Origin: an uncultured bacterium
GTDB lineage: Bacteria > Patescibacteriota > Doudnabacteria > UBA920
Assembly (NCBI GenBank): GCA_963749445.1
Contig: CAVVMJ010000010.1
Coordinates: 254,021 to 318,020 of the forward strand
Direction: 5' to 3'
DNA: 64,000 nucleotides
A model generated the notes under the pieces. That model ran no database searches. It was given only the letters and a program-made list of their open reading frames with translations, and was not told the DNA's origin. The translations under genes and the position numbers were made by a program. Below are positions 46,858 to 63,453 of this stretch, piece after piece (position 1 is the first letter of the stretch; each line of letters begins with the position of its first letter).

Positions 46858-46916
46858 AATTCTCTAATTCTCTAATTCTCTAATTCTCTAATTCTCTAAT
46901 TCTCTAATTCTCTAAT
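46858..46916. repeat. tandem octanucleotide repeat (TCTCTAAT) x about 6.5 in the pilM-pilN spacer
   Basis: Read directly: ttctctaattctctaattctctaattctctaattctctaattctctaattc. Confidence 0.9.
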
Positions 46917-49393: not shown

Positions 49394-49438
49394 TGTGGGA
49401 TTGACAAGAATTAAAAGATTTAAATGATTGACAAGAAT

Positions 49439-49828
49439 TTAAGACAATTTGCCCGGGTGATTTTTTATTGAAGTATTTCTGGAAGACGTCATAATGGCAG
49501 TTAATTCATCAGCTTCCTTAAGCAAATCTTGAACTAAAGAAAGCGGAACTACGCCTGACGCGACCAAAAGTTCCAGCCAGCCCAAAGTCTCGTCAGCCTC
49601 TTCAACCACGGTACCCATTTTTGAAATAAAATCCTTGGCTGACTTACATCTGCATACCGCTCGATAATTACCGAAAACACCCGTACCAGAACGTAAAACC
49701 TGGTCGCCCAGCTTCCTTCCGACATTGCCGCAATTCTTTTCCAAATACTGGGCAAGTTTTATAATCTTAATTGCGAATTGTTTTGTTTTTTCCTTTAATT
49801 CTTTTGGATCCATAATTTTTAAAATCAT
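49439..49828 (-). CDS. four-helix-bundle protein (formerly 23S rRNA intervening-sequence protein family, PF05635)
   Basis: 129 aa. LAQYLEKNCGNVGRKLGDQVLRSGTGVFGNYRAVCRCKSAKDFISKMGTVVEEADETLGWLELL is the family pattern. Inserted between pilB and pilC. Confidence 0.8.
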   Translation of the reverse strand: MILKIMDPKELKEKTKQFAIKIIKLAQYLEKNCGNVGRKLGDQVLRSGTGVFGNYRAVCRCKSAKDFISKMGTVVEEADETLGWLELLVASGVVPLSLVQDLLKEADELTAIMTSSRNTSIKNHPGKLS

Positions 49829-49882
49829 GTCGCCGCTTCAATCATGTCAATCTTTTAAATCATGTCAATCTTGTCAATCACA

Positions 49883-51634
49883 CTACTCTTTGCTCACCCG
49901 CACAATTTCTTCCACCGTCGTTATCCCCTTGGCCGCTTTTATAAAACCGTCCTCCCACATCAAAACCATGCCCTCCTTTTCCCCCTGCTCCTGGATTTCC
50001 GGCGCGCTATTGTGGGCCATGATCATCTGCGAAATGGCCGGGCTGACTTCCAGAATTTCGTGGATGCCGACGCGGCCGCGGTAGCCGGTATGGCTACACT
50101 TGTCGCAGCCTTCGCCTTTGAAAAATTGGATGTCCGCCAATGATTTGGCTTTTTCGGGCGCCGCACCGCGCCGCGCCAAAACCGGCAGGAGTTTTTCCAA
50201 ATGGAATTGCTTGGCCAGGCTGCCGAGCACAACCTCGTCCAGCTTAATGGCCGCTTTGCAGTCCTTGCAGATCACGCGGACCAGGCGCTGCGCCAGCACC
50301 GCGTTGATGGTGGAAGAGATCAAGTAAGGCTCCACGCCGATGTCCAAAAGCCGGGGCAAAGCCGAGGCCGCGTCGTTGGTGTGGAGAGTGGAAAACACAA
50401 TGTGGCCGGTCATGGCCGCGTGTACCGCTTCTTCGGCCGTTTCCTTGTCGCGGATTTCGCCGATCATAATGATATTCGGGTCCTGCCGCAGAAGCGCCCT
50501 TAGGCCGATGTCAAAAGTCAGGCCGATTTTGGGGTTGATTTGCATCTGGTTGGCGCCGACCAGCCGGTATTCCACCGGGTCTTCAATGGTGGAAATGTTC
50601 ACGCTCTTGGTATTCAGCATGCTCAAGACCGTATACAGCGTGGTGGATTTGCCGCTGCCCGTGGGGCCGGTCACCAGCATCATGCCGTGCGGCTTTTTGA
50701 TGTTGCGCGTAATCAGGTCAATGCCTTCCGGCTCAAAACCTAAATCTTCCAAAGACGCGGCCTTGGCTGACTCGTCCAGCAGGCGGATGACGACTTTTTC
50801 CCCGTCGAAAATCGGGATCGCGGACACGCGCATGGAAAATTTATAGCCTTCCTTTTCAATCTTAAACCGGCCGTCCTGGGGCAGGCGATGCTCGTCAATT
50901 TTTAAATTGGTCAAAACCTTGATGCGCGCCACAATCGCCGCCTGGATGACTTTGGGCAAAGTCATAACGTCATGGAGCACGCCGTCAATGCGGTAACGGA
51001 CAATCACCGCATTCTCCTGCGGCTCAATGTGGATGTCGGAAGCTTTTTCAAAAATCGCATACTCAATTAACGTGTCCACCACGCGGATGACGGGGATTTC
51101 CTCGGCCATTTTTTTCAGGCCGTCCTCGGCGCTCTCCCCTTCCGGACTGGCTTTCAACGGCTTGTCGGAACCTGTGAACAGGTGTTTGATTTCCTTTTCC
51201 AGGCTGGAGTGGTATTTGGACAGGCCGAACTCCAAACTGCTTTTGCCAATGAGAAAAATTTTAATCTTCAGGCCGGTCTTTTTTTGGATGAATTCCTTGG
51301 TCTGCAGGTCCGACGGGTCGGTCATAGCCAATGACAGGTCTTCCTTGGTTTTGGCGAAACTGATGACCTGATGACGATGGGCAATCGGCTCGGGCACCAG
51401 ATTGAGCACGTCCTGGGCAATGGTTTCGTTGCGCAAATCCACCACCGGCGCGCCCGTGGCTTCGCTTTTTATGGCCAAAAGCTGGTCTTCGGTCACGATT
51501 TTTTTCTCAACCAAAAAATCTTCCCACGACGTAGGCGCCTTTTGGGAATTTAAATCCTTTTCCAGCTGGGCGATGCTGGCATCGGTCAAAAGCTTTTTGC
51601 TTTTTAACACTAAATTGAGTTCCTTTTTATCCAT
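49883..51634 (-). CDS. pilB: type IV pilus assembly ATPase PilB (GspE family) with N-terminal GSPII_E_N domains
   Basis: 583 aa. Walker A GPTGSGKST, Asp and His boxes, and a tetracysteine motif (CKDC...CDKC). Confidence 0.9.
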   Translation of the reverse strand: MDKKELNLVLKSKKLLTDASIAQLEKDLNSQKAPTSWEDFLVEKKIVTEDQLLAIKSEATGAPVVDLRNETIAQDVLNLVPEPIAHRHQVISFAKTKEDLSLAMTDPSDLQTKEFIQKKTGLKIKIFLIGKSSLEFGLSKYHSSLEKEIKHLFTGSDKPLKASPEGESAEDGLKKMAEEIPVIRVVDTLIEYAIFEKASDIHIEPQENAVIVRYRIDGVLHDVMTLPKVIQAAIVARIKVLTNLKIDEHRLPQDGRFKIEKEGYKFSMRVSAIPIFDGEKVVIRLLDESAKAASLEDLGFEPEGIDLITRNIKKPHGMMLVTGPTGSGKSTTLYTVLSMLNTKSVNISTIEDPVEYRLVGANQMQINPKIGLTFDIGLRALLRQDPNIIMIGEIRDKETAEEAVHAAMTGHIVFSTLHTNDAASALPRLLDIGVEPYLISSTINAVLAQRLVRVICKDCKAAIKLDEVVLGSLAKQFHLEKLLPVLARRGAAPEKAKSLADIQFFKGEGCDKCSHTGYRGRVGIHEILEVSPAISQMIMAHNSAPEIQEQGEKEGMVLMWEDGFIKAAKGITTVEEIVRVSKE

Positions 51635-52493: not shown

Positions 52494-53807
52494 CTAGCGG
52501 CCTTGCCAGGTAAAAATATAATACAAGGTCTTTAGGATAATCTCCAAGTCAAACAGTACGCTGCGGTGCTTAATGTAATACAAATCGTACTGCAGCTTGA
52601 GCCTGGTTTCCTCCAGACTGGCGGCGTAGACGTTGTTGATTTGCGCCCAGCCGGTCAGTCCCGGCTTGACCAAATGGCGCTCGTCGTAAAACGGGATATG
52701 CTGTTTCAGTTCTTCAACGATGTGCGGCTGTTCCGGCCTCGGTCCGACCAAACTCATATTGCCAAGCAGCAAATTAATAAACTGCGGCCACTCGTCAACG
52801 CGCGACATGCGCAAAAAGCGCCCAACTTTGGTAATGCGCGGGTCATTAGCGCTTGTCCAGGTATTGGTCGCTCCCCACGACTGCATAGTGCGGTATTTAT
52901 AAACCTTGAAGACTTTGTTGTTTTTGCCTACGCGCTCTTGGACAAAAAAAATCGCGCCGCGCGAAGTGAACTTAATCAGCAAAGCAATCACGGGAAAAGT
53001 CACGGCAAAAACTACGCCGGCAGTCAAGCCGACAACCAAATCGATTATTCTTTTTAATAAATTGTAAAACCGTTTCTCTCGGTAATCGATGTTTTCCAAA
53101 AACCACAGCTCGCTGATCTGGGACAAATAGACGCGGCGCAGCAAGCTTTCGTAAAAATCCTTGTAATTGTAAAAATCCACTCCCGACCGCCTGAGCTCGT
53201 AAAATTTCTTCAGCACCTCCGGCCGCTCGCCTAAATTGTCGGGCAAGACAATGGCCGCGCCTTTGGAAAGCGCCGCCTCGGGCAGGCTCTGGCCGCTGAT
53301 GTGCCCGAGCACCCTAAAACCCAAATAGTTGTGGTGCGCGATTTCCTGCTCCAGCTCGCGCAGTTCGTTGTTAAAAGAAAACAAATACACGCCTTGGGAA
53401 ATCCGGTTCTTGATTAAATACTTAATGAGCAGGTGCCAGCCCAAAATCAACACGAAAGAGACGGCCGCGTCAATCAACAAAAACCTTCTGGGCGTGAAAA
53501 TCAGCAACGGCTGGAAGTAGAAAAAAATGATGGCCGCCAAAACGTTAAACATCATGGCGGAAACCAGGCTGAACACCAGACTGGTGTAACGACGCAGGGA
53601 AGAAAAATCAAACAAGCCGTGGATAAAAAAAATCACGGCCCAGACCAAATAAATCAAGGAAAACAGCCGCAGATGGTTTAGCCAGACCAAAGGCGAAAGG
53701 CCGCCGCCGTAGCGGATTTGAACCGTCAACCACAAACTTAAATAGAGCAGCAGGACGTCGGGCAGCAGGATGATGAGAAAATTTTTGGGCTTATTTACGC
53801 TGGCCAT
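52494..53807 (-). CDS. polyprenyl glycosylphosphotransferase (bacterial sugar transferase, WbaP/CpsE-like), initiating enzyme of exopolysaccharide synthesis
   Basis: 437 aa. N-terminal TMS, and a C-terminal Bac_transf domain (VGKNNKVFKVYKYRTM ... DEWPQFINLLLGNMSLVGPRPE). Confidence 0.85.
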   Translation of the reverse strand: MASVNKPKNFLIILLPDVLLLYLSLWLTVQIRYGGGLSPLVWLNHLRLFSLIYLVWAVIFFIHGLFDFSSLRRYTSLVFSLVSAMMFNVLAAIIFFYFQPLLIFTPRRFLLIDAAVSFVLILGWHLLIKYLIKNRISQGVYLFSFNNELRELEQEIAHHNYLGFRVLGHISGQSLPEAALSKGAAIVLPDNLGERPEVLKKFYELRRSGVDFYNYKDFYESLLRRVYLSQISELWFLENIDYREKRFYNLLKRIIDLVVGLTAGVVFAVTFPVIALLIKFTSRGAIFFVQERVGKNNKVFKVYKYRTMQSWGATNTWTSANDPRITKVGRFLRMSRVDEWPQFINLLLGNMSLVGPRPEQPHIVEELKQHIPFYDERHLVKPGLTGWAQINNVYAASLEETRLKLQYDLYYIKHRSVLFDLEIILKTLYYIFTWQGR

Positions 53808-53826
53808 AAGCTGATTATAGCAAAAA

Positions 53827-54609
53827 TCAGCGGTTTTTGAAACGCCGCCAAATTGGCCCGGCGCCCCACAATTGCAGGCGCCATTTTAGCCTTGCCCAAA
53901 AATAGTTCGGATAAAAATCGCGGTATTGTTTAATCAGCCGTAAAATAGCGCGGATTTGGAACCGGTTTTGGCGTCGCGTAATCCCTTGTTCATTTAAACG
54001 GTGTCCGACCATTACATCGGGCAGATTAGCCAACCGGCCCTTTTGGCCCAAGCGCAACCACAAGGCGTAATCTTCCACGTGAAGATCTTCGGCGCGATAA
54101 CCGCCTGCCTGCAACAAGGCCGATTTTCTGATAACGACGGAGCTGTGCACAAAACAATTATGGAGCAAAATTTCCTTGCGGATTTGGCTATCGTTGGCGG
54201 GCGGGCGGAAGTCGTAAAGTTTTTTGCCCGATGCGGCGGTTACCACAGCGCCGGTGCCGACTAAATTACAATCAGGATGCTCCCGCAAAAATAAGATTTG
54301 CTTAGCCAGCTTTTCGCGGCCTGGCCAAACGTCGTCCGCATCCAGCCGCGCCAGTAATTCACCGCGGGCAGCACCCACGGCATCATTAAGCGACTTTACC
54401 AATCCCAAATTTTGCGCGTGACTGATAAGTACCACGCGGCTGTCACGGTTTTGGAATCGCGCAACAATGTCCGGCGTGTTATCGGCGGAACCGTCATTGA
54501 CAATAACCAGTTCCCAATCGGCGAATGACTGATTAAACACACTTTGCACAGCCGTCTCTAAATCGCGGTCGCCGTTATACACCGGCAAAATTATGGAAAC
54601 TTGGGGCAT
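53827..54609 (-). CDS. glycosyltransferase family 2
   Basis: IILPVYNGDRDLETAVQSV ... NDGSADNT ... LDADD motif set. Confidence 0.8.
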   Translation of the reverse strand: MPQVSIILPVYNGDRDLETAVQSVFNQSFADWELVIVNDGSADNTPDIVARFQNRDSRVVLISHAQNLGLVKSLNDAVGAARGELLARLDADDVWPGREKLAKQILFLREHPDCNLVGTGAVVTAASGKKLYDFRPPANDSQIRKEILLHNCFVHSSVVIRKSALLQAGGYRAEDLHVEDYALWLRLGQKGRLANLPDVMVGHRLNEQGITRRQNRFQIRAILRLIKQYRDFYPNYFWARLKWRLQLWGAGPIWRRFKNR

Positions 54610-54816: not shown

Positions 54817-55446
54817 CTAAAGGAAATTCTGGGATCTCGGATCTTTTGCCCAAGCCTGAACGGTTAAGCCGCCGCGGTCTTTATCGGAAATCAGCAAGCC
54901 AGGACTTTTTAAAACCTGTACAAACTTTTTGTGCAAACCCGACTCGCACAAAGACCAGTCAATGTCCTTAGACAACGGCGAAATCCCCTCTTCGCAATCG
55001 GGATTATATTCTCCGGAACAAAAATACTCAATCGCCGTTTCCTCCAAGTAAAAATTCCCGTGGGCGAACCCCGGCGGCAGCCAAATCCATTCCGAAAAAT
55101 CGTTTCTGGGATCCTGCGGCATATTGTACATAATGGCTTTGCCGTAAGCCAGCGAATTTTTGCGGATATCCATCGCAACGTCAATCATGTGGCCAAAAAC
55201 CGTGCGCACCAGTTTGCCGACATAAGGGTTCCACTGGAAATGCAGCCCGCGCGCCGTGCCTTTGCGGGAATAGCTTTCGTTGCTTTGGACAAAATTAACA
55301 TTGCGGATAAAATCCAGCTCCGGCTTGCCGCGAAAATCGCTCTCCCGCCACGGCTCGCTGAAATATCCGCGGCGGTCCAAAAACCTGCCAAACCGGATAA
55401 CCTTGACCTCCGGAAAAACCAAACTTTTTACTTCCAAAATTTTCAT
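54817..55446 (-). CDS. dTDP-4-dehydrorhamnose 3,5-epimerase family protein (RmlC-like cupin)
   Basis: RmlC motifs: FxDxRGxFxE-like (FLDRRGYFSEPW), RGLHFQ, and LPPGFAHG. Confidence 0.75.
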   Translation of the reverse strand: MKILEVKSLVFPEVKVIRFGRFLDRRGYFSEPWRESDFRGKPELDFIRNVNFVQSNESYSRKGTARGLHFQWNPYVGKLVRTVFGHMIDVAMDIRKNSLAYGKAIMYNMPQDPRNDFSEWIWLPPGFAHGNFYLEETAIEYFCSGEYNPDCEEGISPLSKDIDWSLCESGLHKKFVQVLKSPGLLISDKDRGGLTVQAWAKDPRSQNFL

Positions 55447-55570
55447 ATCGTTTTAATCATACCATTTTTTTGCCAACAAAAAAAGCCTTTACATTTAAGG
55501 ATTTTTAGGGTATAATGCTTGGTCACGGCACGAGCCGCGAGACAGTCCACAACCTGGACTGGAGGAAAAA

Positions 55571-56500
55571 TTGCGCAGGCATATTTTTGACACCATTATG
55601 GCCGCCATGAAAGCGGCTATGATGGCAGTCTACGACTACCAGATTGGCAACAGGCGGCTCGTTGCGCCCGCGGAAATTAAGGCGCACGATGCCACGCTGC
55701 TGACGCAGTGCGACAAGGACAGCGATGTTGCTGCCAAAGCGCACCTGCTCACGCTACCGACGGAATACGACATCCAGCCCGAAGACGGCGACGGACGCAC
55801 CACGCCCGGAGCCGAGTATTTAGTCTGGCTGGATAACCTGGACGGCACCCGGCCGTTCACCAACGGCCTGATAACCTCAACTGTTATTTTGGCCGTTTAT
55901 GACTACGCCGTCAGACAACTGGTCTGGTGCGCGATCGGCGAGCCCATTAGCGGGCGCATTTGGATCTCGTCCCTACCCGGACAGGAAACCAAGGGAGCTT
56001 GGTTGGTGGGGATGTCGCACCAAAACCAAACGCTTTCGGTACCACGACCGATCCAAGTTAATGCCGACCCCCTCGACGGCCAAGCCACGGTACTTATGGA
56101 TTTAGCCAAAGGATTCCCGCGCAAGGGCAAAGACAACTCTGTGCGACAAATCCTCACCAACAATCAGGTACACAACCTGATCAACGCCGTCACTGCCCAA
56201 GGCCCATACGTACTGGTCTACCAATCTAACGGTTGCCAGCAGGCTGCCGTGGCCAATGGCGGCGAGAAAATGGTAGCCTCCATTACGACCGCCATGGGCG
56301 GCGAGTGGGACGCGGCGGGCGTGTTGCTGGTTCTGGAAGCCGGCGGCGCGGCGCGGGCGTTTCGGAGGAATGACGACCATACGCTGACCGAAGCCGATCC
56401 GCTCGATCCGTTCAGCTACGACCTGCTGGTCTGCGCCAACAGCAAAACAGCGGCCGACCAACTGGCCGCCACGCTGATCGAGGTATGCAAAATCGTCTAA
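55571..56500 (+). CDS. inositol monophosphatase (IMPase/FIG) family protein
   Basis: Motifs WLDNLDGT and WDAAGVLLVLEAGG. Alternative TTG start. Confidence 0.6.
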   Translation: MRRHIFDTIMAAMKAAMMAVYDYQIGNRRLVAPAEIKAHDATLLTQCDKDSDVAAKAHLLTLPTEYDIQPEDGDGRTTPGAEYLVWLDNLDGTRPFTNGLITSTVILAVYDYAVRQLVWCAIGEPISGRIWISSLPGQETKGAWLVGMSHQNQTLSVPRPIQVNADPLDGQATVLMDLAKGFPRKGKDNSVRQILTNNQVHNLINAVTAQGPYVLVYQSNGCQQAAVANGGEKMVASITTAMGGEWDAAGVLLVLEAGGAARAFRRNDDHTLTEADPLDPFSYDLLVCANSKTAADQLAATLIEVCKIV

Positions 56501-56564
56501 CAATCAAGAGAGCAGGAACGCCGCGTTCGCGCGACGGGCCTGCTCTTCTTCATTTACAAAAAAA

Positions 56565-57776
56565 TTATTTATCTTTCTTGCCCCACTTTTTTATGGCCGC
56601 GTCGTATTCTTTGCCGTAGTTGCCGTCTATGGCCTGCCTCATGGCGCGGACGCCGGCTAAGGTGCCCATGGGGTGGGAGGTTAGGGCGCCGCCGACGTTG
56701 GCCATCCAGTTGGCATGGCCGACTTCGGCTTTAATATACTCCACGAGCCCAGGCTGCATACCGCAGCTAAGTGCCGGCACACAGTTAATATCGTTAAGAT
56801 CCTGGATAATGCGCTTGGTGCGCTCGGTTTCGTCGTTAAGATAGCCGCCGATCATGCCCACATGCAAAGTACTGCAGCCGCTTAAACCGGCCAGGTTAAA
56901 AATTACCCGCTCGTTAATGTTATAGGGACCGGTATTTAAAACTTTGTCCCCGCTTTTTTGGAAATGCATAAGCAAAGGCAAATCCAGTTCGCGCAGGGAT
57001 TTATAAACCCCTAAACCGCAATGGAAATTTATATGGATGCCGTTACCGCCCAAATCCGCCACCAATTTGGCCCGCTTTAAAATATGCGCGGGGTCGGAAC
57101 TCATGGACACGCAATAAAAAACTTTGGCGCCGCTGTCCCTTAAATATTCCATAACCAGCGGCACGCGTTTTTCTATGGGGCAATGCGCCGGATCGGACAA
57201 AATTTCGTCTTCCTTGATAAAATTACAGCCCCCGTCTATAAGCTGTTTGACCAAATCCAAGTGCCGCTCCGGCGACAGCCCGACTTTGGGCTTGACTATG
57301 CCGCCGAACAAAATTTTATTTTCCGGGACGCCGCAATATTCCTTCATCTCCCGCAGGCCTACTTTAGGTCCCAAAAGGCACTTGCGCATATTCGGGGTCA
57401 ACCGGACATCCAGCAGCTCGCAGCCCTCAATGATGTCTATGTCCATTTGTCCCCCCATGGTTTGCACCAGGAGCTGAGAGACGCCGTCAGTCTGGAAATT
57501 AATATTGGCTTCCGGAAAGGCAATCTGCACCGTCCCCTGCTTTAAGCGCTCCAGACTTTTTTCATCGCTGAGCACCAGGCAGGAATGGTGCTCAAACAGC
57601 TCATCGGTTTCAAATTCCGAACGGTTTTTGGGATTGCCCACCGACTGGCCGATGGCCAAATCCCACGCCGCGTCCCTTAAGTTGGTCTGGCTTTTTAAGC
57701 GGTAAGTCGCGATGTAATATTTATTAAAAAATTCTTCCGAAAGCTCGGAGCTCGATCCCCGAAAAATATCAATCAT
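56565..57776 (-). CDS. RuBisCO large-subunit family protein, probably a RuBisCO-like protein (type IV RLP)
   Basis: Strong match to the RuBisCO core LFGGIVKPKVGLSPERHLDLVKQLIDGGCNFIKEDE (KPK, carbamylation Lys and acidic metal ligands present). The HIHRA-equivalent segment reads IHINFH, so the catalytic His/Arg look substituted. About 403 aa, shorter than bona fide RuBisCO. Confidence 0.65.
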   Translation of the reverse strand: MIDIFRGSSSELSEEFFNKYYIATYRLKSQTNLRDAAWDLAIGQSVGNPKNRSEFETDELFEHHSCLVLSDEKSLERLKQGTVQIAFPEANINFQTDGVSQLLVQTMGGQMDIDIIEGCELLDVRLTPNMRKCLLGPKVGLREMKEYCGVPENKILFGGIVKPKVGLSPERHLDLVKQLIDGGCNFIKEDEILSDPAHCPIEKRVPLVMEYLRDSGAKVFYCVSMSSDPAHILKRAKLVADLGGNGIHINFHCGLGVYKSLRELDLPLLMHFQKSGDKVLNTGPYNINERVIFNLAGLSGCSTLHVGMIGGYLNDETERTKRIIQDLNDINCVPALSCGMQPGLVEYIKAEVGHANWMANVGGALTSHPMGTLAGVRAMRQAIDGNYGKEYDAAIKKWGKKDK

Positions 57777-58096
57777 ATGATTTCAAATTTATCGTTTTTT
57801 ACTGACGGAATTTTGACCACGATGAGTTCGCATTCCGTAAAAAATACCGGGTCGGCGACTTCACCGGGTTTAATGATAAAGACGTCGCCTTTAGTGAATG
57901 TCCTGTTCATCAGCTTCATTTTGCCCCGAATCAGATAATTGATTTCCGTGGCCACTTTGTGGTAATGCTTGGCCCAGCGCTCGCCTTTGGGGTGGAGCTT
58001 AAAACAAACTTCAAAGTCTTGGGTTTTATGGGCGGCCGGGCGGAAATTGCCAATGAACCAACCGCCTTTCCATTTTTTGGATTTATGGACTTCCAT
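57773..58096 (-). CDS. cupin-domain protein
   Basis: 107 aa with a two-His cupin motif (KHYHKVATEINYLIRGKMKL). Confidence 0.6.
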   Translation of the reverse strand: MEVHKSKKWKGGWFIGNFRPAAHKTQDFEVCFKLHPKGERWAKHYHKVATEINYLIRGKMKLMNRTFTKGDVFIIKPGEVADPVFFTECELIVVKIPSVKNDKFEII

Positions 58097-58100
58097 AAGG

Positions 58101-58820
58101 CTATAAATTTCTCCATTTCTTGTAATTTTCGTAGTCTTCCGGTATGCCGATGGGAAAATGCATATTAAAATGGTAAGGGAGAATCTTCATGCCTTTTTTC
58201 AGCATATAGTTGTAGGAAGGTGCGACATAATATTCGCCGTTTAAAGCATCTTTATTCTGCTCCATTTCCTCAACCGATTCCACAAAATATTTCCCTTTTT
58301 TCCAGTAATGCAGCCCGTTGGTGGCCAAATTGCTAATGACGACCTTTTCCTTGGTTTCAGTCACCAGGTTACTTTCATTGATTTTAACATAGCTGTTTTT
58401 GGGGCTGCTGGAAAAGAACGTGCCCAAAACCCCGTCGGGATTGTGGAAATCGCAAAAATTCTTGAATTGTTCGTAACTGAAATCCTCTATAATTTGGTCG
58501 CAGTTGACCACGATAAGCGGCGTATCGTTATTGATATGCCGCTTGGCCTGCATGCAGGACATGGCCGAACCCTGGGGCACGTAATCTATTTCCACCAGCT
58601 TATAATCGGAAATCAGCCCGTCCAGTTTTGCCTTAAGCGCGGCCGGGTCCAGGCTTTTTTTGTTCACCACAAAAATAAATTTTAAATCCGGATGCGCCAA
58701 GTTTTTGACCACGCGCTCTATCATAGTGGATTTGCCCATAGGCAAAAAAGGCTTGGGCACCTTGTAACCCATATCGCTGAACCTTTGGCCAAGTCCGGCC
58801 ATGGGAATCAATATATTCAT
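58101..58820 (-). CDS. sugar-phosphate nucleotidyltransferase (GT-A-like NTP_transferase fold)
   Basis: N-terminal ILIPMAGLGQRF...KPF motif, characteristic of nucleotidyltransferases. Confidence 0.6.
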   Translation of the reverse strand: MNILIPMAGLGQRFSDMGYKVPKPFLPMGKSTMIERVVKNLAHPDLKFIFVVNKKSLDPAALKAKLDGLISDYKLVEIDYVPQGSAMSCMQAKRHINNDTPLIVVNCDQIIEDFSYEQFKNFCDFHNPDGVLGTFFSSSPKNSYVKINESNLVTETKEKVVISNLATNGLHYWKKGKYFVESVEEMEQNKDALNGEYYVAPSYNYMLKKGMKILPYHFNMHFPIGIPEDYENYKKWRNL

Positions 58821-58833
58821 AAAGTTTGATTAA

Positions 58834-59289
58834 TTATAGATATTTGGTTATGAAATCGCTGCAAATTCCGGCGCAAGCCTTTAGCCCACGGTTGTCTTTG
58901 CGCGCTTCCGGCAAAACACAAATGCTGTTTTTCAATAACCGCCCTTTGAAGCAATGGACCCAAATGTAGCCTTTGGAAGTCAAAGCGTAGTCGTCTTCCT
59001 GGTGCCAAAAATAGTGCAGTCCGGGACGCTGTTTTAAATAGACAAGCGCCGCGGCGTTTTTAGCGTGATACCAGGCGCGCGCCGGATCAAGCTCCGTAAA
59101 AAGAGTTTCGTCAACTTTATATTGCGGCCCATCGTGCCCCAAAAACAGGCCGCCTTGGGTATGCCATAAATCAAGCTCAATGTCAAAACCTAAAGATTGA
59201 GCGAACTTTAGGTACGAAGGCTGGTTTTCTTTTTCAGGCCTCGCCCCCTCTGTATTGCCGCGATGGGATATTAATATCATTTTAAACAC
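58834..59289 (-). CDS. glycerophosphodiester phosphodiesterase (GDPD)-like family protein, short
   Basis: N-terminal ISHRG motif and an E-x-D motif (FDIELDLW). Confidence 0.45.
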   Translation of the reverse strand: MFKMILISHRGNTEGARPEKENQPSYLKFAQSLGFDIELDLWHTQGGLFLGHDGPQYKVDETLFTELDPARAWYHAKNAAALVYLKQRPGLHYFWHQEDDYALTSKGYIWVHCFKGRLLKNSICVLPEARKDNRGLKACAGICSDFITKYL

Positions 59290-60373
59290 CTGTCTTAATG
59301 TTCATGCTTTGCATGCGCCTATGGTGTTTTTGCGCGATTGATTGAACGACAAAGGCATGGAATTTTGGAAATTGTTTCTTGATGAAAAACCGGAAATTAT
59401 AAACCACCGCGTAAGCCAGCTCCTCAAAAATATTCGGGACAATGACTAAGTGGTTGTTGGCGTATTTATTAAGCAGTTTTTTGTATTCGGTAAAAGTGTA
59501 CGGGCCGCCGTTGTTCAAGAAAGGGGCTTTCGCAAAGGCCACGCCGGGAAATTTTAACCAATTTATCCCGGCCCGCCGGCTGCTTAACAGGATGCAATTG
59601 CTGGCAAAATATTTTTCCGAGAGGGCGATATTGTCATGGGAAATATCCTCAATGTGCTCAAAATGCATTGGCTTGTATTTTGACAAAAACTGGGACCAAA
59701 TGTACTGTTCCGCCGAATATGGGTTAATAGCGACGCGCTCATCGCCGTTTTGGTCTTTCCTGGTCGTTTGCTTATTTATTAACGGGATGTCGAAAATATT
59801 TTTAACGTCTTCGGTTAACCCGAAAAAAAACCAGTCGCAGCAGTTAAACGGCCATTTTTGCCTCCGGTTGGGGTTGCAGGTGGTTAAGGTAACGACTCTT
59901 TGCTTTAAAATTTTATAATTTTGGTCAAACGGCAGCTGGCTGTATTTAATGAAATAATCTATAAATTTTTTCCCCTTAAGCTCCAAATCGCTTCTCATTT
60001 TGATGGCGTATTTGGTCCGGCAGGCTTTCAGGCCGTTGCCGGAAGAAACTATCTGGCGGAAACAATTGGTAGGATTATCCCCCATCTGATTGGGACCCGG
60101 GTCTTTGCTTAAAATTAAGACATCGTAATCCAAATTTTCCGTATCCGCGCCTTCCCAGGTGGATAAAATTATCTGGGCGCCGGGCAAATATTTGCGGACG
60201 CTCTTTAAACAAATATGCGTCAGCCTGTGCTTGGGATTGTTATTTTTCGAACCGGATACAGCCCCCTGGACCACGACCGATATTTCGCTGTTTTTAATAT
60301 TTTCCGTTGTCATATGTATTTGAATGTTTGATAAGCTTGGCTGCGCCCCGGAAGCAAACGCAAAATCGCCCAA
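59282..60373 (-). CDS. polysaccharide/LPS biosynthesis protein, WavE-like (tentative)
   Basis: 363 aa. ISVVVQGAV...STWEG N-terminal pattern. Sits in a glycan cluster. Family assignment from memory only. Confidence 0.3.
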   Translation of the reverse strand: MGDFAFASGAQPSLSNIQIHMTTENIKNSEISVVVQGAVSGSKNNNPKHRLTHICLKSVRKYLPGAQIILSTWEGADTENLDYDVLILSKDPGPNQMGDNPTNCFRQIVSSGNGLKACRTKYAIKMRSDLELKGKKFIDYFIKYSQLPFDQNYKILKQRVVTLTTCNPNRRQKWPFNCCDWFFFGLTEDVKNIFDIPLINKQTTRKDQNGDERVAINPYSAEQYIWSQFLSKYKPMHFEHIEDISHDNIALSEKYFASNCILLSSRRAGINWLKFPGVAFAKAPFLNNGGPYTFTEYKKLLNKYANNHLVIVPNIFEELAYAVVYNFRFFIKKQFPKFHAFVVQSIAQKHHRRMQSMNIKTGV

Positions 60374-60472: not shown

Positions 60473-61518
60473 CTACAAGGTGAATAATTTTTTTAGGTTT
60501 GCCTCAACCGCGGCCTCGCTGCAATCCCTTAAAATATCCTGCCGGCACCTTTCGTTTTGTCCTTCGGCAATCCCGGGGTGTTGTAAATAATATAAAAGGT
60601 TTTCCGCCAATTTGGCGGAATCGGTCGGCTCATGAAACAAGGCCTTACCGCTAAACACTCCTATAAAGGACATTATTTTCGGCAGGCACAAAGCGCAGCC
60701 GCACAGAGCCGCGTCGTAGACGGCCACGCACTGGCCTTCGTCAAAAGACGAATTCACGCAAACCGCAAACGAATTTAAAACGGCCGCCAAATCGGCCTGG
60801 GCAAAAAACCATAAGTCTTAACATTATCTTTTAAGCCCCGTTTCTCCGCCTCCGGCCAAAAACTTCCGTCGTTAAGCGCGCCAATTACATGCAACTCTAT
60901 TTCCGGCATGCTCTTTTTTAGAATCTTTAACGCGGCAAGGATGGTCGGCAAATTTTTTTTAGGCGCGACATTGCCCAAATAAACCACATTCTTACGCGGC
61001 AAATTGCCGAACTTGTAAAAATATTTCGCTGAAACTGCCAAAGGCGCCACAAATAGTTTGCCCGGCGCGCACCCCCGGGCGACCAGAAATTCCTTTTCCC
61101 GCTCATTGTTTAAACGCACACGGACAAAAAATCTAAACACAAAATCCTGGATCTTTTGCTTAAGCTTGGTCTGCCTGACCACGTGAGTATGGCCCATAAA
61201 AATAGATTTGCCGGCGACAAACGGCACTAAAAAAGACTGCCACTCATAACTGTTCACATAAAACAACGCCCGGCGGTATTTAAACAATTGCCAAAAAAAA
61301 TTCCAGAAATTTTTATAATCAACCACTTTGATGTCCGGATCAAAACGGGGGTCGTTTTGCATATTGCCCGGGCCTTGCCTAATGAGAGCGATCGGCTGGT
61401 AACCCAAAGACTTAGCGACTTTCAGCGCCTGCAGGTGGTAATTTTCTTCCGGCGCAAAATCATACATTTGCCGCGAATAGCCCCAAATTACCGAAACAAA
61501 ATACTTTGGCTGGCTCAT
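60473..61518 (-). pseudogene. glycosyltransferase family 4 (GT1 fold), split by a -1 frameshift near 60775..60795
   Basis: The N-terminal ORF (60775..61518) and C-terminal ORF (60473..60790) overlap. The C-terminal ORF carries the GT4 EX7E-region pattern. The junction lies in a T6/C3 homopolymer context. Confidence 0.7.
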
Positions 61519-61543
61519 GGAAGTTTGATTAATAAAACTTTAC

Positions 61544-62611
61544 TTAAATGTCAAAAATTATGTTAAAAATCTCCCGGAACCGGATTTCAAAAGTGTGTTC
61601 GCGCAAGGTGCGCTCGTATCCGCATCTGGCTATGGCCTCGCGCTCCCGGGGATTTTCCAGATAATATTTAATCTTGCGCGCCAGCTCCGCGTTATCCTTA
61701 AATACGATGATCTCGCGGCCATCCTCGTAATATTCCCCCAGGTTATCGGCATAACCTGTGAGCAAAAAACCGCCGCAGCCCGGCACTTCAAAAGTCCGGC
61801 CTTTGATTTGGTCTCTCTGGTGGCCCAAAAACGAGCGGCAGTTTTCCGCCCAGCGCCAGGGGTTGTGCGGCCTGACGCGGCCGTGCTGTTTGTACAAAAA
61901 AACTCGCGCCACTGACCGCAGCGAATTATAACCGGAACCTTTGGTCAGGTTCAAATTTATCCGCGATTTATAAAACGCCTCAATCATTCCGGTCTGGTCA
62001 ATCCTGCCGTTGGGCCAGCCGGCGCCAAAGCAGGAAACGTCAATTCCCTGCTCGGCTAACTCCGCCATAATCTTTGCCCTGTCCCCATGCACCTGGCCGA
62101 TAAAACTGGCCCCGTAGGTATAGTCTTTTGGCGGCACCGGCCCCGCAGGTTTGTACAAAAAATGGTTGCAGGCCCACTGGGTTTTTATGGCATTATTGTA
62201 ACCAATGCGGCGGTATTTTTCCGGCGCCTCGGAATCCGTGGTGGAGACAAAACTAAAGTTCGGCGCGTAGTACTTGGAAAAATTGTCAAACCGCCAGTGG
62301 TCGTCGGCAAACCAGTTAAAAGTTTTAATGCCCATATTAGTAATTTGTTTGACGGTTTGAGGCAAAATTTCATTGCGGAACAAATAAAAAAAACACAAAT
62401 CCGGTTTTTCGGAGGAAACGGTCTCCAAAAGCTTTTGGTTCATGGCCTTATGGCCGCTTTCGCGCATAATTTCGTCAAACGCAAAATACAATACCTTATG
62501 CCGGCCGTTGTCCATCTTCGCAAGCGTATCGTAAAAATTGTAATATTCCACCGACAAGCCCCTTTCGGGTTTGCCGGTATCGTGCTTTAAGGCTACAAAT
62601 AAAATTTTCAT
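61544..62611 (-). CDS. CgeB-family / DUF3880-type glycosyltransferase-like protein
   Basis: 355 aa. C-terminal Glyco_trans_1_2-like segment (GCGGFLLTGYADNLGEYYEDGREIIVFKDNAEL). Confidence 0.5.
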   Translation of the reverse strand: MKILFVALKHDTGKPERGLSVEYYNFYDTLAKMDNGRHKVLYFAFDEIMRESGHKAMNQKLLETVSSEKPDLCFFYLFRNEILPQTVKQITNMGIKTFNWFADDHWRFDNFSKYYAPNFSFVSTTDSEAPEKYRRIGYNNAIKTQWACNHFLYKPAGPVPPKDYTYGASFIGQVHGDRAKIMAELAEQGIDVSCFGAGWPNGRIDQTGMIEAFYKSRINLNLTKGSGYNSLRSVARVFLYKQHGRVRPHNPWRWAENCRSFLGHQRDQIKGRTFEVPGCGGFLLTGYADNLGEYYEDGREIIVFKDNAELARKIKYYLENPREREAIARCGYERTLREHTFEIRFREIFNIIFDI

Positions 62612-63453
62612 ATTTTTTTATTCCCAAAAAAAAACTTTTTTAAAACCGGCCGCACGGGCATACCTCCGATTAACCTTCTGATAATTAAGCGCGTGTAAGC
62701 AAAAAACAAAGCGGAAGTAAAACGGGGATAGGTTTTCCCATACTGCTTGATCAAACTGACATTTTTGATTTGTTGTTTCAATAAATTTTTTCCCCCGTCC
62801 GAACTCGGACGGAGCCGGCATCTCACGCCATAAAAAGGCAAGTTGGCCATTTTTCCCACAGTCCCCAAATTCAGCCACAGCTCATAATCTTCCACGTGCC
62901 TCATAACTTCCCCGGCTTTATAGCCACCCACGGCCTTAAAAGCGGCTTTGCGGAATACCACGCTGGAATTAATGAAGCAGCTGCCGAACAAAATGTTTCT
63001 GCGGATTTTTTCATCGGTTTGGGGCGGGATGTAATCGTAAGCTTTGCGGCCCTTCTCATCCACGCCGCGCATCCCGGTGCCCGCCAAAACGCAGTCCGGA
63101 TGGTGTTCAAAAAAATCCAGCTGCTTTTTTAATTTACCGGGGTCAATCCATTCATCGTCGTCGTCAAGCAGCGCAACAAATTCTCCCCGCGCGTCGGCGA
63201 TGCCGAAATTTCTGGCCGCGGCCTGTCCGGCGTTGTCTTGCCGCAGATAACGCACGCGGCCATCCTGCTTGATCAGTTCCCCGACGATTTCCGCCGCGTT
63301 ACCCACGGTGGAGCCGTCATCGATGACAATTATTTCCAGATTTTGATAACTTTGCGATAAAACCGAAACCACCGCCTGCCTAATGAATTCGGAGGAGTTG
63401 TAAGTAGGCATTATGACTGAAACCAAATTTTCCATAAAATTTCTAAACTTCAA
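62608..63453 (-). CDS. glycosyltransferase family 2
   Basis: VIMPTYNSSEFIRQAV ... DDGSTVGN ... LDDDD motif set. Confidence 0.8.
   Translation of the reverse strand: MKFRNFMENLVSVIMPTYNSSEFIRQAVVSVLSQSYQNLEIIVIDDGSTVGNAAEIVGELIKQDGRVRYLRQDNAGQAAARNFGIADARGEFVALLDDDDEWIDPGKLKKQLDFFEHHPDCVLAGTGMRGVDEKGRKAYDYIPPQTDEKIRRNILFGSCFINSSVVFRKAAFKAVGGYKAGEVMRHVEDYELWLNLGTVGKMANLPFYGVRCRLRPSSDGGKNLLKQQIKNVSLIKQYGKTYPRFTSALFFAYTRLIIRRLIGGMPVRPVLKKFFFGNKKI

What the first reader, a model, noticed from the sequence alone, without database searches (positions are those of the whole stretch)
54817..60373. RuBisCO-like protein embedded in a glycan-biosynthesis cluster (RmlC-like, IMPase-like, cupin, nucleotidyltransferase, GDPD-like)
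A RuBisCO large-subunit homolog (KPK and KxDE-type carbamylation and metal sites present, HIHRA-equivalent replaced by IHINFH) sits between an IMPase-family gene and a cupin-nucleotidyltransferase-GDPD-like string. Flanking these are a sugar transferase, GT2 and GT4 glycosyltransferases and CgeB-like genes. Known RLP roles (methionine salvage, sugar-acid metabolism) do not normally sit in this context. The arrangement suggests an uncharacterised sugar-phosphate isomerisation or enolisation step feeding a nucleotide-sugar for cell-surface glycan synthesis.
Basis: partly seen in the sequence, partly recalled or inferred. Interest (0 to 1): 0.6.

Follow-up and report, generated by a model that had tools for sequence, protein, structure and literature searches.

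The report
RuBisCO-like enzyme in nucleotide-sugar cassette
A non-carbon-fixing relative of RuBisCO is the signature gene of a small mobile cassette, shared by phages, giant-virus-like contigs, SAR11, CPR bacteria, DPANN archaea and Legionella, that is always paired with a sugar-activating enzyme in surface-glycan clusters, which points to an undescribed job for the RuBisCO superfamily.

Summary
Window 56565-57776(-) encodes a 403-aa RuBisCO large-subunit homolog in a glycan cluster. One detail is wrong: the HIHRA equivalent is LMHFQKSGD, not IHINFH.

It is not a carboxylase. Only 10 of 20 active-site positions match form I. The Mg/carbamate triad, K175, K177, H327 and the P1 glycines are kept. 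N123, E60, T65, H294, R295, H298, K334 and G380 are replaced, identically in 26 members down to 34% identity.

It belongs to a monophyletic clade separate from the MtnW, OiaX-type, form III and form I references used. This is probably Jaffe 2019's function-less 'form IV-like' phage/Beckwithbacteria clade.

- **Distribution:** 385 IMG/VR contigs and 46 species genomes, including cultured Legionella, Azospirillum and Pelagibacter (SAR11 HVR2).
- **Conserved core:** NTP-transferase, mini-cupin, RLP, often a methyltransferase, then a 148-aa mini-GDPD.
- **Adjacency:** an NTP-transferase family gene lies in the RLP locus in 87/88 and 41/46 loci, usually adjacent.
- **Fusions:** RLP-NTPtr (128-member cluster), GDPD-RLP, NTPtr-cupin and HAD-NTPtr.
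- **Not conserved:** the IMPase and RmlC genes.

Best reading: the RLP is an enolising isomerase/epimerase that feeds a GDP-mannose-like nucleotide-sugar route. The substrate is unknown.

The parts
56565..57776 (-). RuBisCO-like protein (403 aa), non-carboxylating, 'form IV-like' clade; signature gene of the cassette
   Evidence: Pfam PF00016 1.5e-31. Below every NCBIfam equivalog cut-off. 10/20 active-site residues match form I. The family is monophyletic in an NJ tree. 37-sequence alignment with 60+ invariant positions. The ATGA start overlaps the cupin stop.
57773..58096 (-). 107-aa metal-type mini-cupin (H44-x-H46-x4-E51, H35 invariant)
58101..58820 (-). Nucleotidyltransferase (239 aa), the near-universal partner of the RLP
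   Evidence: Pfam NTP_transferase 3.1e-11. Best PDB hit is 4evw, a V. cholerae NDP-sugar pyrophosphorylase. After that, the family profile ranks mannose-1-P guanylyltransferases, RmlA and a GDP-heptose pathway enzyme well above IPCT, IspD and LicC. In the RLP locus in 87/88 and 41/46 loci. RLP-NTPtr fusion P0362 is 37% identical to it.
58834..59280 (-). 148-aa minimal GDPD-fold phosphodiesterase-like protein ('p151')
59282..60373 (-). WavE-family protein (LPS-synthesis family of unknown mechanism), first gene of the five-gene minus-strand string
   Evidence: Pfam WavE 1.4e-52. Present near the module in 24/88 and 8/46 loci. No relation to LicD by hhalign. Its stop lies 1-2 nt from the p151 start.
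55571..56500 (+). IMPase-family phosphatase, convergent with the RLP; local neighbour, not part of the conserved cassette
   Evidence: Pfam Inositol_P 1.3e-12. No PDB hit at 1e-3. Found next to the RLP only in this organism's own copy, 1/88 loci. GC 58.8% against 43-51% for neighbours, with its own promoter-like site.
54817..55446 (-). RmlC-like cupin epimerase; neighbour, not conserved with the RLP
   Evidence: Pfam PF00908 3.6e-35. TIGR01221 scores 124.6 bits, below the cut-off of 155.75. Present in 2/88 loci.
52494..54609 (-). Downstream glycan genes: Bac_transf priming sugar transferase (52494-53807) and GT2 (53827-54609)
   Evidence: Pfam Bac_transf 4.8e-60 and Glycos_transf_2 4.1e-29.
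60473..63453 (-). Upstream glycan genes: GT1/GT4-type gene split in two frames (60775-61518 and 60473-60790), Glyco_trans_1_2/CgeB-type (61544-62611), GT2 (62608-63453)
   Evidence: Pfam hits. 16-nt overlap between the two frames.

Best explanation
The gene encodes a catalytically competent but non-carboxylating RuBisCO-like protein. It is the defining enzyme of a horizontally mobile cassette that makes a nucleotide-activated sugar for surface or virion glycans. The cassette is a sugar-1-phosphate-type nucleotidyltransferase, a mini-cupin, the RLP, often an O/C-methyltransferase, and a minimal GDPD-fold phosphodiesterase. It often also carries a beta-phosphoglucomutase-like HAD domain, an SDR (in some loci a GDP-mannose 3,5-epimerase homolog) and a WavE-family protein.

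Proposed mechanism:
1. The carbamylated Lys188, Asp190 and Glu191 bind Mg2+. With Lys162/Lys164 and His305 they enolise a phosphorylated 2-keto-sugar held by the retained P1 phosphate site (Ser337, Gly339, Gly362-363).
2. All residues that handle CO2 addition, hydration and C-C cleavage are replaced (N123, E60, K334, H294). The enediolate is therefore simply reprotonated. The outcome would be an epimer or a carbonyl-shifted isomer of a common ketose phosphate.
3. The cupin (aldose-ketose isomerase-like), plus a mutase or phosphatase (HAD, the host's, or here possibly the IMPase), converts this to a sugar-1-phosphate.
4. The nucleotidyltransferase turns that into an NDP-sugar, most likely a GDP-manno-type hexose or heptose. 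SDRs, methyltransferases and glycosyltransferases then tailor and install it.

Shown: family membership, the residue pattern, conserved synteny, the fusions, the folds of the small partners, and the distribution. Inferred: that the RLP is an isomerase or epimerase, that it acts before nucleotidyl transfer, the nature of the sugar, and the role of the GDPD-like protein, which remains unexplained.
For: - **RuBisCO_large homology, no known subfamily:** it reaches no NCBIfam equivalog cut-off for form II, form III, MtnW or OiaX.
- **Residue pattern:** K175, K177, K201, D203, E204, H327, S379, G381, G403 and G404 are kept. E60G, T65N, N123G, H294Q, R295K, H298D, K334Y and G380C are substituted. The pattern is the same in nearly all of 26 members from viruses, bacteria and archaea down to 34% identity. 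Strong purifying selection is evident.
- **Synteny:** NTPtr occurs in 87/88 loci, mini-GDPD in 74/88 and cupin in 73/88. NTPtr occurs in 41/46 species genomes. The commonest extended operon orders are NTPtr>cupin>RLP>(MT)>p151(>SDR).
- **Fusions:**
  - RLP+NTPtr, 667 aa, in a 128-member cluster seen in many independent assemblies.
  - p151+RLP, 546 aa, followed by NTPtr+cupin, 415 aa, on one contig.
  - HAD+NTPtr in 14 cases, NTPtr+cupin in 4, NTPtr+GDPD in 1.
- **NTPtr profile:** nearest to sugar-1-P guanylyl/thymidylyl-transferases, not to CDP-alcohol-forming enzymes.
- **HAD domain:** nearest to beta-phosphoglucomutase.
- **Cupin:** its highest-identity structural neighbours are mini phosphomannose isomerases.
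- **SDR:** the gene directly after the module in SAR11 is a GDP-mannose 3,5-epimerase homolog, 2.4e-95.
- **Glycan context everywhere examined:**
  - The window.
  - SAR11 HVR2, with WecA-like, Wzy_C and GT1 genes.
  - Phage contigs with GT10, GT25, GT2, GT17 and FkbM methyltransferases.
Against: - There are no biochemical data for any member, and none was found in the literature.
- If cupin, HAD and NTPtr already equal PMI, PMM and GMPP, the RLP and the GDPD-like enzyme have no assigned step. The role of a phosphodiesterase in a nucleotide-sugar route is unexplained.
- The cupin and p151 are dispensable in some lineages. Legionellaceae carry only LicD, RLP and NTPtr.
- Many cellular loci carry two distinct NTPtr paralogs, one beside the RLP and one beside the GDPD. 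The simple linear model does not predict this.
- The RLP could equally act on the nucleotide-bound sugar.
Confidence: 0.55

Rival explanations
1. Same cassette, but the RLP works after the nucleotidyltransferase. It binds the diphosphate of an NDP-(keto)sugar in its phosphate site. By enolisation it catalyses an epimerisation, a keto-isomerisation or a carbon-skeleton (alpha-ketol, branched-chain) rearrangement on the nucleotide-bound sugar. The cupin, methyltransferase and SDR act as fellow tailoring enzymes.
For: - The RLP-NTPtr fusion has the RLP at the N-terminus and the NTPtr at the C-terminus.
- The operon order is NTPtr>cupin>RLP>MT>p151>SDR.
- Sugar C-methyltransferase-type genes (Methyltransf_13/14) lie next to the RLP in L002 and L005.
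- Known RLPs of the apiose pathway handle branched-chain sugar acids (Carter 2018, as cited in PMC6389311).
Against: - SDR dehydratases that would create the keto group are present in only about 37% of loci.
- Every characterised RuBisCO-superfamily substrate is an acyclic phosphate monoester or bisphosphate, not a nucleotide sugar (established knowledge).
- The Legionella loci have RLP and NTPtr with no SDR.
Confidence: 0.2
2. The cassette makes a CDP-type activated phospho-alcohol or ketose-phosphate, of the CDP-ribitol, CDP-6-fructose or CDP-choline kind. This is transferred as a phosphodiester-linked substituent. The RLP makes the unusual phospho-compound. The GDPD-like protein or LicD handles the phosphodiester chemistry.
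For: - In four Legionellaceae genomes the RLP-NTPtr pair sits beside a LicD-family phosphotransferase and lacks p151.
- A GDPD-fold phosphodiesterase is a core member and is even fused to an NTPtr or to the RLP.
- A GDPD, an NTP_transferase-family LicC and LicD are functionally linked in the phosphocholine decoration pathway of Haemophilus (my own knowledge).
- L141 lies next to a phosphonate-decoration gene set: PEP mutase, split TPP decarboxylase, Fe-ADH and NTP_transf_3.
Against: - The NTPtr family profile scores IPCT, IspD and LicC five to seven orders of magnitude worse than mannose-1-P guanylyltransferases and RmlA.
- The HAD fusion partner is beta-phosphoglucomutase-like.
- A GDP-mannose 3,5-epimerase homolog and GT10 fucosyltransferase-type genes are adjacent.
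- LicD-family enzymes can also transfer sugar-1-phosphate from GDP-sugars (yeast Mnn4; my own knowledge), so LicD does not discriminate between the readings.
Confidence: 0.12
3. A methionine-salvage-like trio. The RLP acts as a diketo-phosphate enolase (as MtnW), a HAD enzyme as the enol-phosphatase (as MtnX), and the cupin as an acireductone-type dioxygenase (as MtnD). Together they process a 2,3-diketo-1-phosphate.
For: - An RLP, a metal cupin with an HxH..E motif and a HAD domain co-occur.
- MtnW is among the best-scoring solved relatives of the RLP.
Against: - HAD is present in only 17 loci, is always fused or adjacent to the NTPtr, and is beta-PGM-like.
- No mtnK/A/B genes are in the neighbourhoods.
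- The residue pattern differs from MtnW: K177 and H327 are kept, H294 is lost. The NCBIfam MtnW models score 103-126 bits against cut-offs of 409-514.
- This reading ignores the near-universal NTPtr partner and the glycan context.
- The cassette occurs in CPR bacteria and DPANN archaea, groups generally regarded as anaerobic fermenters (my own knowledge), where a dioxygenase is unlikely.
Confidence: 0.03
4. A bona fide form II/III or form III RuBisCO working in the CO2-incorporating nucleotide (AMP) salvage pathway known from CPR bacteria and DPANN archaea.
For: - The best single NCBIfam and PDB scores are to form III enzymes.
- The KPK motif and the metal triad are intact.
- The host is probably a CPR bacterium, a group in which such RuBisCOs are known (PMC6389311).
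Against: - Only 10/20 active-site residues are kept. K334Y, N123G, H294Q, R295K and E60G are invariant in the family.
- It scores 137.8 bits against a cut-off of 497 for TIGR03326.
- Its clade is separate from the form III reference.
- No deoA or e2b2 genes appeared in the Pfam-annotated neighbourhoods, whereas true e2b2-RuBisCO fusions look quite different (P0396).
Confidence: 0.01

Closest known systems
'Form IV-like' RuBisCO-like proteins of phages and Beckwithbacteria (Jaffe et al. 2019, Mol Biol Evol, PMC6389311)
   Same: Same superfamily and the same kind of carriers. Large uncultivated phage scaffolds carry it (385 IMG/VR contigs), as does a Beckwithbacteria genome (L099, 48% identity). 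It is divergent from all other RLPs and lacks several conserved catalytic residues. This is almost certainly the same clade.
   Different: - That paper gave no genomic context and no function, and suggested oxidative-stress or unknown roles.
- I could not compare with their sequences directly.
- The conserved cassette, the fusions, and the occurrence in SAR11 HVR2, Legionella, Azospirillum, DPANN archaea and giant-virus-like contigs are added here.
- Their eight Parcubacteria RLPs were placed inside IV-Photo. This window's protein scores worse against the IV-Photo structures 1tel/1ykw (65 bits) than against MtnW or form III (104-108 bits).
Characterised RLPs: MtnW/YkrW DK-MTP-1-P enolase, R. 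rubrum MTRu-1-P 1,3-isomerase, OiaX and related apiose/tetronate-pathway decarboxylases
   Same: All use the carbamyl-Lys/Asp/Glu Mg2+ site to enolise a phosphorylated keto compound without fixing CO2 (established knowledge). K201, D203, E204 and the G403-G404 phosphate site are shared.
   Different: - 25-31% identity and a separate clade.
- Below all NCBIfam cut-offs.
- This family uniquely keeps K177 (KPK) and H327 but changes H294 to Q, R295 to K and K334 to Y.
- The context is anabolic (nucleotidyltransferase, glycosyltransferases), not catabolic or salvage. There is no DUF1537 kinase and there are no mtn genes.
Bifunctional type II phosphomannose isomerase / GDP-mannose pyrophosphorylase (ManC/AlgA/XanB) with phosphomannomutase
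   Same: An NTP_transferase domain is paired, and sometimes fused, with a small metal cupin. The NTPtr profile is nearest to mannose-1-P guanylyltransferases. A mutase-like HAD domain is fused in 14 cases. A GDP-mannose 3,5-epimerase homolog lies downstream in SAR11.
   Different: - The cupin does not match the MannoseP_isomer Pfam model (only weak Cupin_2/Cupin_7).
- The mutase candidate is HAD-type, not alpha-D-phosphohexomutase.
- No known GDP-mannose route contains a RuBisCO-like protein or a GDPD-fold protein.
Glycerophosphodiester phosphodiesterases (GDPD, PF03009), relevant to the 148-aa partner
   Different: About 100 residues shorter than any solved GDPD. It does not reach the Pfam threshold. 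The residue I take to correspond to GDPD's third metal ligand is His75 (my own reading of the W-x-H-x-K motif; not tested). The substrate is unknown.

Membership tests
RuBisCO large-subunit superfamily | Catalytic TIM-barrel domain matching PF00016 above the gathering score | tested here: met
   110.2 bits against a cut-off of 30.1, E 1.5e-31.
RuBisCO large-subunit superfamily | Carbamylatable Lys plus Asp/Glu Mg2+ ligands (K201, D203, E204) | tested here: met
   K188, D190 and E191 are invariant in the family. Carbamylation itself is not testable here.
Bona fide RuBisCO (forms I-III) | Full set of catalytic and RuBP-binding residues (E60, T65, W66, N123, K175, K177, K201, D203, E204, H294, R295, H298, H327, K334, S379, G380, G381, G403, G404) | tested here: not met
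   10 of 20 scored positions match. K334Y, N123G, H294Q, R295K, H298D, E60G, T65N and G380C are substituted.
Bona fide RuBisCO (forms I-III) | Reaches curated equivalog scores (TIGR03326 form III, PRK13475 form II, PRK04208) | tested here: not met
   137.8 against 497.45; 87.3 against 489; 125.2 against 438.
Bona fide RuBisCO (forms I-III) | RuBP-dependent CO2 fixation | not testable with these tools
   Needs an enzyme assay.
MtnW/YkrW DK-MTP-1-P enolase (form IV) | Equivalog score and mtn-gene context | tested here: not met
   TIGR03332 103.1 against 513.6; NF007095 125.8 against 409. No mtn genes among the recurrent neighbours.
OiaX-type RLP decarboxylases (apiose / four-carbon acid sugar pathways) | Equivalog score and an adjacent DUF1537 four-carbon acid sugar kinase | tested here: not met
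   NF042437 126.1 against 700. The reference loci have the kinase next door; these loci do not.
'Form IV-like' phage/Beckwithbacteria RLP clade (Jaffe 2019) | Carried on large phage scaffolds and in Beckwithbacteria | tested here: met
   385 IMG/VR contigs. Phage-type replication genes lie beside it. Beckwithbacteria MAG locus L099 carries it.
'Form IV-like' phage/Beckwithbacteria RLP clade (Jaffe 2019) | Groups with the published sequences, outside all other RLP clades | tested here: inconclusive
   The NJ tree shows a separate monophyletic clade.
GDPD family (for the 148-aa partner) | GDPD TIM-barrel fold with the catalytic His/Arg/Glu/Asp/His set | tested here: met
GDPD family (for the 148-aa partner) | Matches PF03009 over its full length | tested here: not met
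   No Pfam hit for the window protein. Only 1 of 39 members gave a match, at E 0.24. It is about 100 residues shorter than GDPDs.
Type II PMI-GMP (ManC/AlgA) analogue (for NTPtr + cupin) | NTP_transferase domain plus MannoseP_isomer-type cupin | tested here: inconclusive
   The NTP_transferase domain is met and the profile is nearest to mannose-1-P guanylyltransferases. The cupin hits only Cupin_2/Cupin_7 weakly. Structural similarity to mini-PMIs is not discriminating.

The most novel reading that the evidence does not exclude
The RLP catalyses a reaction with no precedent in nucleotide-sugar biosynthesis. There are two candidate forms.

1. It converts a central ketose-1,n-bisphosphate (FBP or SBP type) directly into an aldose-1,n-bisphosphate. 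This would be the reverse sense of the MtnA / ribose-1,5-bisphosphate isomerase reaction. It would yield the glycosyl-1-phosphate without any kinase or mutase.
2. It carries out a Mg2+-dependent alpha-ketol rearrangement to a branched-chain sugar.

Together with a miniature GDPD-fold enzyme this would define a new route to a GDP-sugar. Phages, giant viruses and streamlined cells (SAR11, CPR, DPANN) would trade this route to diversify surface glycans in the virus-host arms race.
Probability: 0.15. Interest if true: 0.9.

Novelty: new variant of a known kind. Interest (0 to 1): 0.72.

Why it matters
- **New role for the superfamily.** RuBisCO-superfamily enzymes are so far known from CO2 fixation, methionine/MTA salvage and acid-sugar catabolism. 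A conserved anabolic role in nucleotide-sugar and surface-glycan synthesis would be a new functional branch of a much-studied superfamily.
- **Ecological reach.** The cassette lies in SAR11's hypervariable region 2. It is also carried by hundreds of uncultivated large phages and by giant-virus-like contigs. It therefore bears on how viruses and abundant marine and groundwater microbes vary their surfaces.
- **Annotation.** JGI labels many of these genes 'ribulose-bisphosphate carboxylase large chain'. That invites false inference of carbon fixation or 'photosynthetic' auxiliary genes in viral and MAG surveys.
- **Testability.** Cultured carriers exist, so the question can be tested directly: Legionella drozanskii ATCC 700990, L. 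nautarum, L. maceachernii, Azospirillum oleiclasticum and Pelagibacter sp. uisw_094.

Tried and rejected
- **True form II/III RuBisCO:** rejected on residues and scores.
- **IV-Photo membership** (as Jaffe found for other Parcubacteria RLPs): the Chlorobium structures score lower than MtnW and form III.
- **IMPase and RmlC as cassette members:** rejected, present in 1 and 2 of 88 loci.
- **WavE as a LicD analogue:** hhalign probability 0.1% and no PDB relative.
- **Cultured or deposited phages carrying the RLP:** none in INPHARED.
- **Plasmids:** only unrelated RLPs at 31% identity or less.
- **tmRNA predicted by ARAGORN inside the RLP gene:** no Rfam support.
- **Promoter and terminator scan:** counts equal those of shuffled sequence, so it is uninformative except for a promoter-like site before the IMPase gene.
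- **Literature searches** for a function of phage or SAR11/Legionella RLPs, or for RLPs in polysaccharide clusters: nothing beyond Jaffe 2019.
- **SDR neighbours:** heterogeneous (GME-like in 9 loci, RmlB-like in 2 loci at 40% identity or more, the rest more divergent), so they do not fix the sugar.

Full report
**1. What is in the window**

Five tightly packed genes lie on the minus strand at 56.5-60.4 kb:

- WavE-family protein, 59282-60373
- a 148-151-aa protein, 58834-59289
- NTP_transferase, 58101-58820
- a 107-aa cupin, 57773-58096
- a 403-aa RuBisCO large-subunit homolog, 56565-57776

The cupin stop and the RLP start overlap as ATGA. The other junctions are 1-14 nt. This fits one operon.

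An IMPase-family gene (55571-56500, + strand) converges on the RLP. It has its own promoter-like site and a distinctly higher GC (58.8%). An RmlC-like gene follows at 54817-55446.

Further out lie a Bac_transf priming transferase, two GT2 genes, a GT1/GT4-type gene (Pfam Glycos_transf_1) split over two frames, and a Glyco_trans_1_2 (CgeB-type) gene.

The rest of the window is ordinary cellular DNA: BipA, DNA polymerase III delta, type IV pilus genes, MacB/HlyD, MFS transporters and three tRNAs. The closest RLP homologs are from Parcubacteria and Saccharibacteria MAGs. The host is therefore probably a CPR bacterium. That is an inference, not something I established.

**2. The RLP is real, conserved and not a carboxylase**

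It matches PF00016 at 1.5e-31. It stays far below every curated NCBIfam cut-off:

| Model | Score (bits) | Cut-off (bits) |
|---|---|---|
| Form III (TIGR03326) | 138 | 497 |
| OiaX (NF042437) | 126 | 700 |
| MtnW (NF007095) | 126 | 409 |
| Form II (PRK13475) | 87 | 489 |

I aligned it with a form I enzyme, several annotated RLPs and three PDB sequences, and scored 20 active-site positions.

- **Kept:** K175, K177, K201, D203, E204, H327, S379, G381, G403, G404.
- **Changed:** E60G, T65N, W66 (variable), N123G, T173V, H294Q, R295K, H298D, K334Y, G380C.

By established RuBisCO enzymology, the kept set is the metal/carbamate site, the enolisation lysines and the P1 phosphate cradle. The lost set is what stabilises the carboxylated intermediate and performs hydration and cleavage (K334, N123, E60, H294), plus part of the distal phosphate site.

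H248, N250 and F251 of the IHINFH motif are nevertheless invariant in the family.

The core signature is the same in all 26 family members tested, down to 34% identity. Departures are confined to T173, R295 and H298 in a few members and to the variable W66 position. A 37-sequence alignment has more than 60 invariant positions. This is an enzyme under strong selection, probably with one conserved reaction.

In a coarse NJ tree the family is monophyletic. It stands apart from MtnW, the OiaX/3nwr group, a form III structure and form I, with 21-31% identity to these.

**3. Distribution**

- The word-indexed protein search found 2395 relatives with E-value up to 1e-5, a figure that is not restricted to this clade. 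The best 120 are 53-100% identical.
- A scan of IMG/VR found 385 viral contigs encoding relatives, many of them 70-290 kb.
- Neighbouring genes on such contigs include DNA polymerase B, RecA-like, DnaB, primase, GIY-YIG and PD-(D/E)XK nucleases. These look like large phages.
- No genome in the INPHARED collection of phage records downloaded from GenBank has it. Plasmids carry only unrelated RLPs.
- A scan of one genome per species found 46 carriers:
  - Bacterial MAGs and single-cell genomes: Saccharibacteria, Patescibacteria, Beckwithbacteria, many Pelagibacteraceae, Verrucomicrobia, Planctomycetes, Elusimicrobia.
  - DPANN archaea: Woese-, Pace-, Micr- and Nanoarchaeia.
  - Cultured strains: Azospirillum oleiclasticum, Legionella drozanskii, L. 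nautarum, L. maceachernii, and Pelagibacter sp. uisw_094 (complete genome; bioRxiv 10.1101/2025.02.13.637858).
- One contig carrying a fused version also encodes a eukaryote-type topoisomerase IB, a TFIIS zinc ribbon, a cathepsin-type peptidase and WLM. It looks like a nucleocytoplasmic large DNA virus (inference).
[quoted passage not shown] This is hypervariable region 2. It sits among WecA-like, Wzy_C, GT1 and SDR genes.

This matches the 'form IV-like' group that Jaffe et al. 2019 reported on about 80 phage scaffolds and in Beckwithbacteria, with no function. I found nothing later on its function.

**4. The conserved cassette**

I ran iterated profile searches with the window's proteins against all ORFs of the fetched loci.

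| Partner | Metagenome/viral loci (of 88) | Species genomes (of 46) |
|---|---|---|
| NTP-transferase | 87 | 41 |
| 148-aa protein ('p151') | 74 | 29 |
| Cupin | 73 | 12 |
| WavE | 24 | 8 |
| RmlC-like | 2 | 0 |
| IMPase | 1 | 0 |

. Most genome contigs that lack the NTP-transferase are only 1.6-3.7 kb long.

Gene orders:

- The commonest orders are NTPtr>cupin>RLP>p151, NTPtr>cupin>RLP>MT24 and RLP>NTPtr (13 loci each).
- p151>NTPtr>RLP>NTPtr follows (6 loci).
- Longer strings have WavE in front and an SDR behind.
- A Methyltransf_24 or FkbM-type methyltransferase follows the RLP directly in about 30 loci, often with p151 next.

Two architectures exist:

- **A (viruses, CPR):** one NTPtr plus the cupin.
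- **B (many SAR11, DPANN):** no cupin but two NTPtr paralogs. One sits beside the RLP. The other sits beside p151 or a full-length Pfam GDPD that takes its place.

The Legionellaceae version is minimal: a divergently transcribed LicD-family phosphotransferase, the RLP and an NTPtr.

**5. Fusion proteins link all the parts**

- **RLP-NTPtr**, 667-671 aa. The cluster has 128 members at 90% identity, from Tara, JGI, MGnify and ENA assemblies. Its NTPtr part is 37% identical to the window's.
- **p151-RLP**, 546 aa, on four contigs.
- On that same contig the next gene is an **NTPtr-cupin** fusion of 415 aa. The four core activities are thus encoded by two polypeptides.
- Also **HAD-NTPtr** (14 cases), **NTPtr-cupin** (4 cases) and **NTPtr-GDPD** (1 case).

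**6. What the partners are**

- **NTPtr.** The family profile's best PDB hit is an uncharacterised V. cholerae NDP-sugar pyrophosphorylase (4evw, 5.7e-37). Next come two uncharacterised nucleotidyltransferase-family entries (1e-12 to 1e-11), mannose-1-P guanylyltransferases (1e-11 to 1e-10), then RmlA and GDP-heptose pathway enzymes (about 2e-9). IPCT, IspD and LicC are far weaker (3e-6 to 9e-5).
- **HAD domain.** Closest to beta-phosphoglucomutase (2e-16), below the NCBIfam cut-offs.
- **SDR.** The gene directly after the module in two SAR11 loci is a strong GDP-mannose 3,5-epimerase homolog (2.4e-95). Such GME-like genes lie within 5 kb in 9 loci. Other SDR neighbours are heterogeneous.
- **GT10** fucosyltransferase-type genes abut the NTPtr in some phage contigs.

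**7. Interpretation**

Firmly supported: this RLP clade works together with a sugar-nucleotidyltransferase, a mini-GDPD and usually a mini-cupin, in glycan-building loci. The unit moves horizontally among viruses, bacteria and archaea.

Inferred mechanism:

1. The RLP enolises a phosphorylated 2-keto-sugar.
2. It releases an epimer or carbonyl-shifted isomer.
3. Cupin-type isomerisation, a mutase or phosphatase step and nucleotidyl transfer follow. The product is a GDP-manno-type sugar that is further tailored.

The theme of NTPtr similarity, beta-PGM-like HAD, PMI-like cupin, GME and GT10 points that way.

Weak points:

- If cupin, HAD and NTPtr already make up a PMI/PMM/GMPP set, the RLP must create an unusual starting ketose phosphate, and I cannot name it.
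- The phosphodiesterase has no assigned step.
- The two-NTPtr architecture and the LicD association leave room for two other readings: a phosphodiester-linked product, or an RLP that acts on the nucleotide-bound sugar.

I give the main reading 0.55, action at the NDP-sugar level 0.2, and the CDP-type phospho-donor reading 0.12. The methionine-salvage-like and carboxylase readings are essentially excluded.

**8. Novelty and verdict**

The clade's existence on phages was published in 2019. Its conserved cassette, the fusions, the glycan context, its presence in SAR11 HVR2, cultured Legionella and Azospirillum, DPANN and giant-virus-like contigs, and the resulting functional hypothesis appear not to have been described in the literature I could search.

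It is a new functional variant within a known superfamily, not a new kind of system. It is wrong on one motif, and it over-inclusive on the cluster, since the IMPase and RmlC genes are local neighbours only.

Noticed in passing
window 56613-56976 (+): ARAGORN calls a permuted tmRNA inside the RLP gene on the opposite strand. Rfam finds nothing there at gathering threshold, so it is a false positive.
   Followed up: yes
window 60473-61518 (-): The GT1/GT4-type glycosyltransferase (Pfam Glycos_transf_1) is split into two ORFs in different frames with a 16-nt overlap (60775-61518 and 60473-60790). This is a frameshifted pseudogene or an assembly error.
   Followed up: partly
window 40001-42000: GC drops to 36% against a window mean of 48%. 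The content was not examined.
   Followed up: no
window 55571-56500 (+): The IMPase-family gene has 58.8% GC against 43-51% for its neighbours, and a near-consensus promoter-like site at 55488-55516. It has no PDB relative at E 1e-3. It may be a separate acquisition. A role as the distal phosphatase of a sugar bisphosphate is only a guess.
   Followed up: partly
database proteins P0396, P0445: Fusions of an IF-2B (ribose-1,5-bisphosphate isomerase-type) domain with an intact form III-like RuBisCO. These are two consecutive enzymes of the AMP salvage pathway in one polypeptide. Unrelated to the family studied here.
   Followed up: partly
database protein P0408: A TIR_2 domain fused to the N-terminus of a different RuBisCO-like protein (583 aa). 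It may be defence-related. Not examined.
   Followed up: no
database protein P0398: An unidentified domain of about 330 aa, with no Pfam hit, fused in front of the N-terminus of this RLP family. The protein is contig-truncated.
   Followed up: no
L096 7995-13238; L097 7968-12481: In SAR11 the RLP module lies 1.3 kb from the 23S rRNA gene (L096) and 3.2 kb from the 5S rRNA gene (L097). It is therefore inside hypervariable region 2. A pntA sRNA and pntAB follow in L097.
   Followed up: yes
L141 2707-5381: Next to the RLP-NTPtr fusion lies a phosphonate-type gene set: PEP mutase, a split TPP decarboxylase, Fe-ADH, NTP_transf_3 and sulfatase-family transferases. The contig has 29.6% GC. This suggests a locus that combines several unusual glycan decorations.
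   Followed up: no
L143 850-5745: The contig with the p151-RLP and NTPtr-cupin fusions also encodes a eukaryote-type topoisomerase IB, a TFIIS zinc ribbon, a C1 peptidase and WLM. It looks like a giant virus of eukaryotes rather than a phage.
   Followed up: partly
window 46912-51634 (-): Type IV pilus genes (PilM-, T2SSF- and T2SSE-type) with a 23S_rRNA_IVP four-helix-bundle gene (49439-49828) between them.
   Followed up: no
L007/L008 15910-17179: The viral contigs carrying the module also encode a giant ORF, 2163 aa as called, running off the locus. It has no Pfam hit.
   Followed up: no
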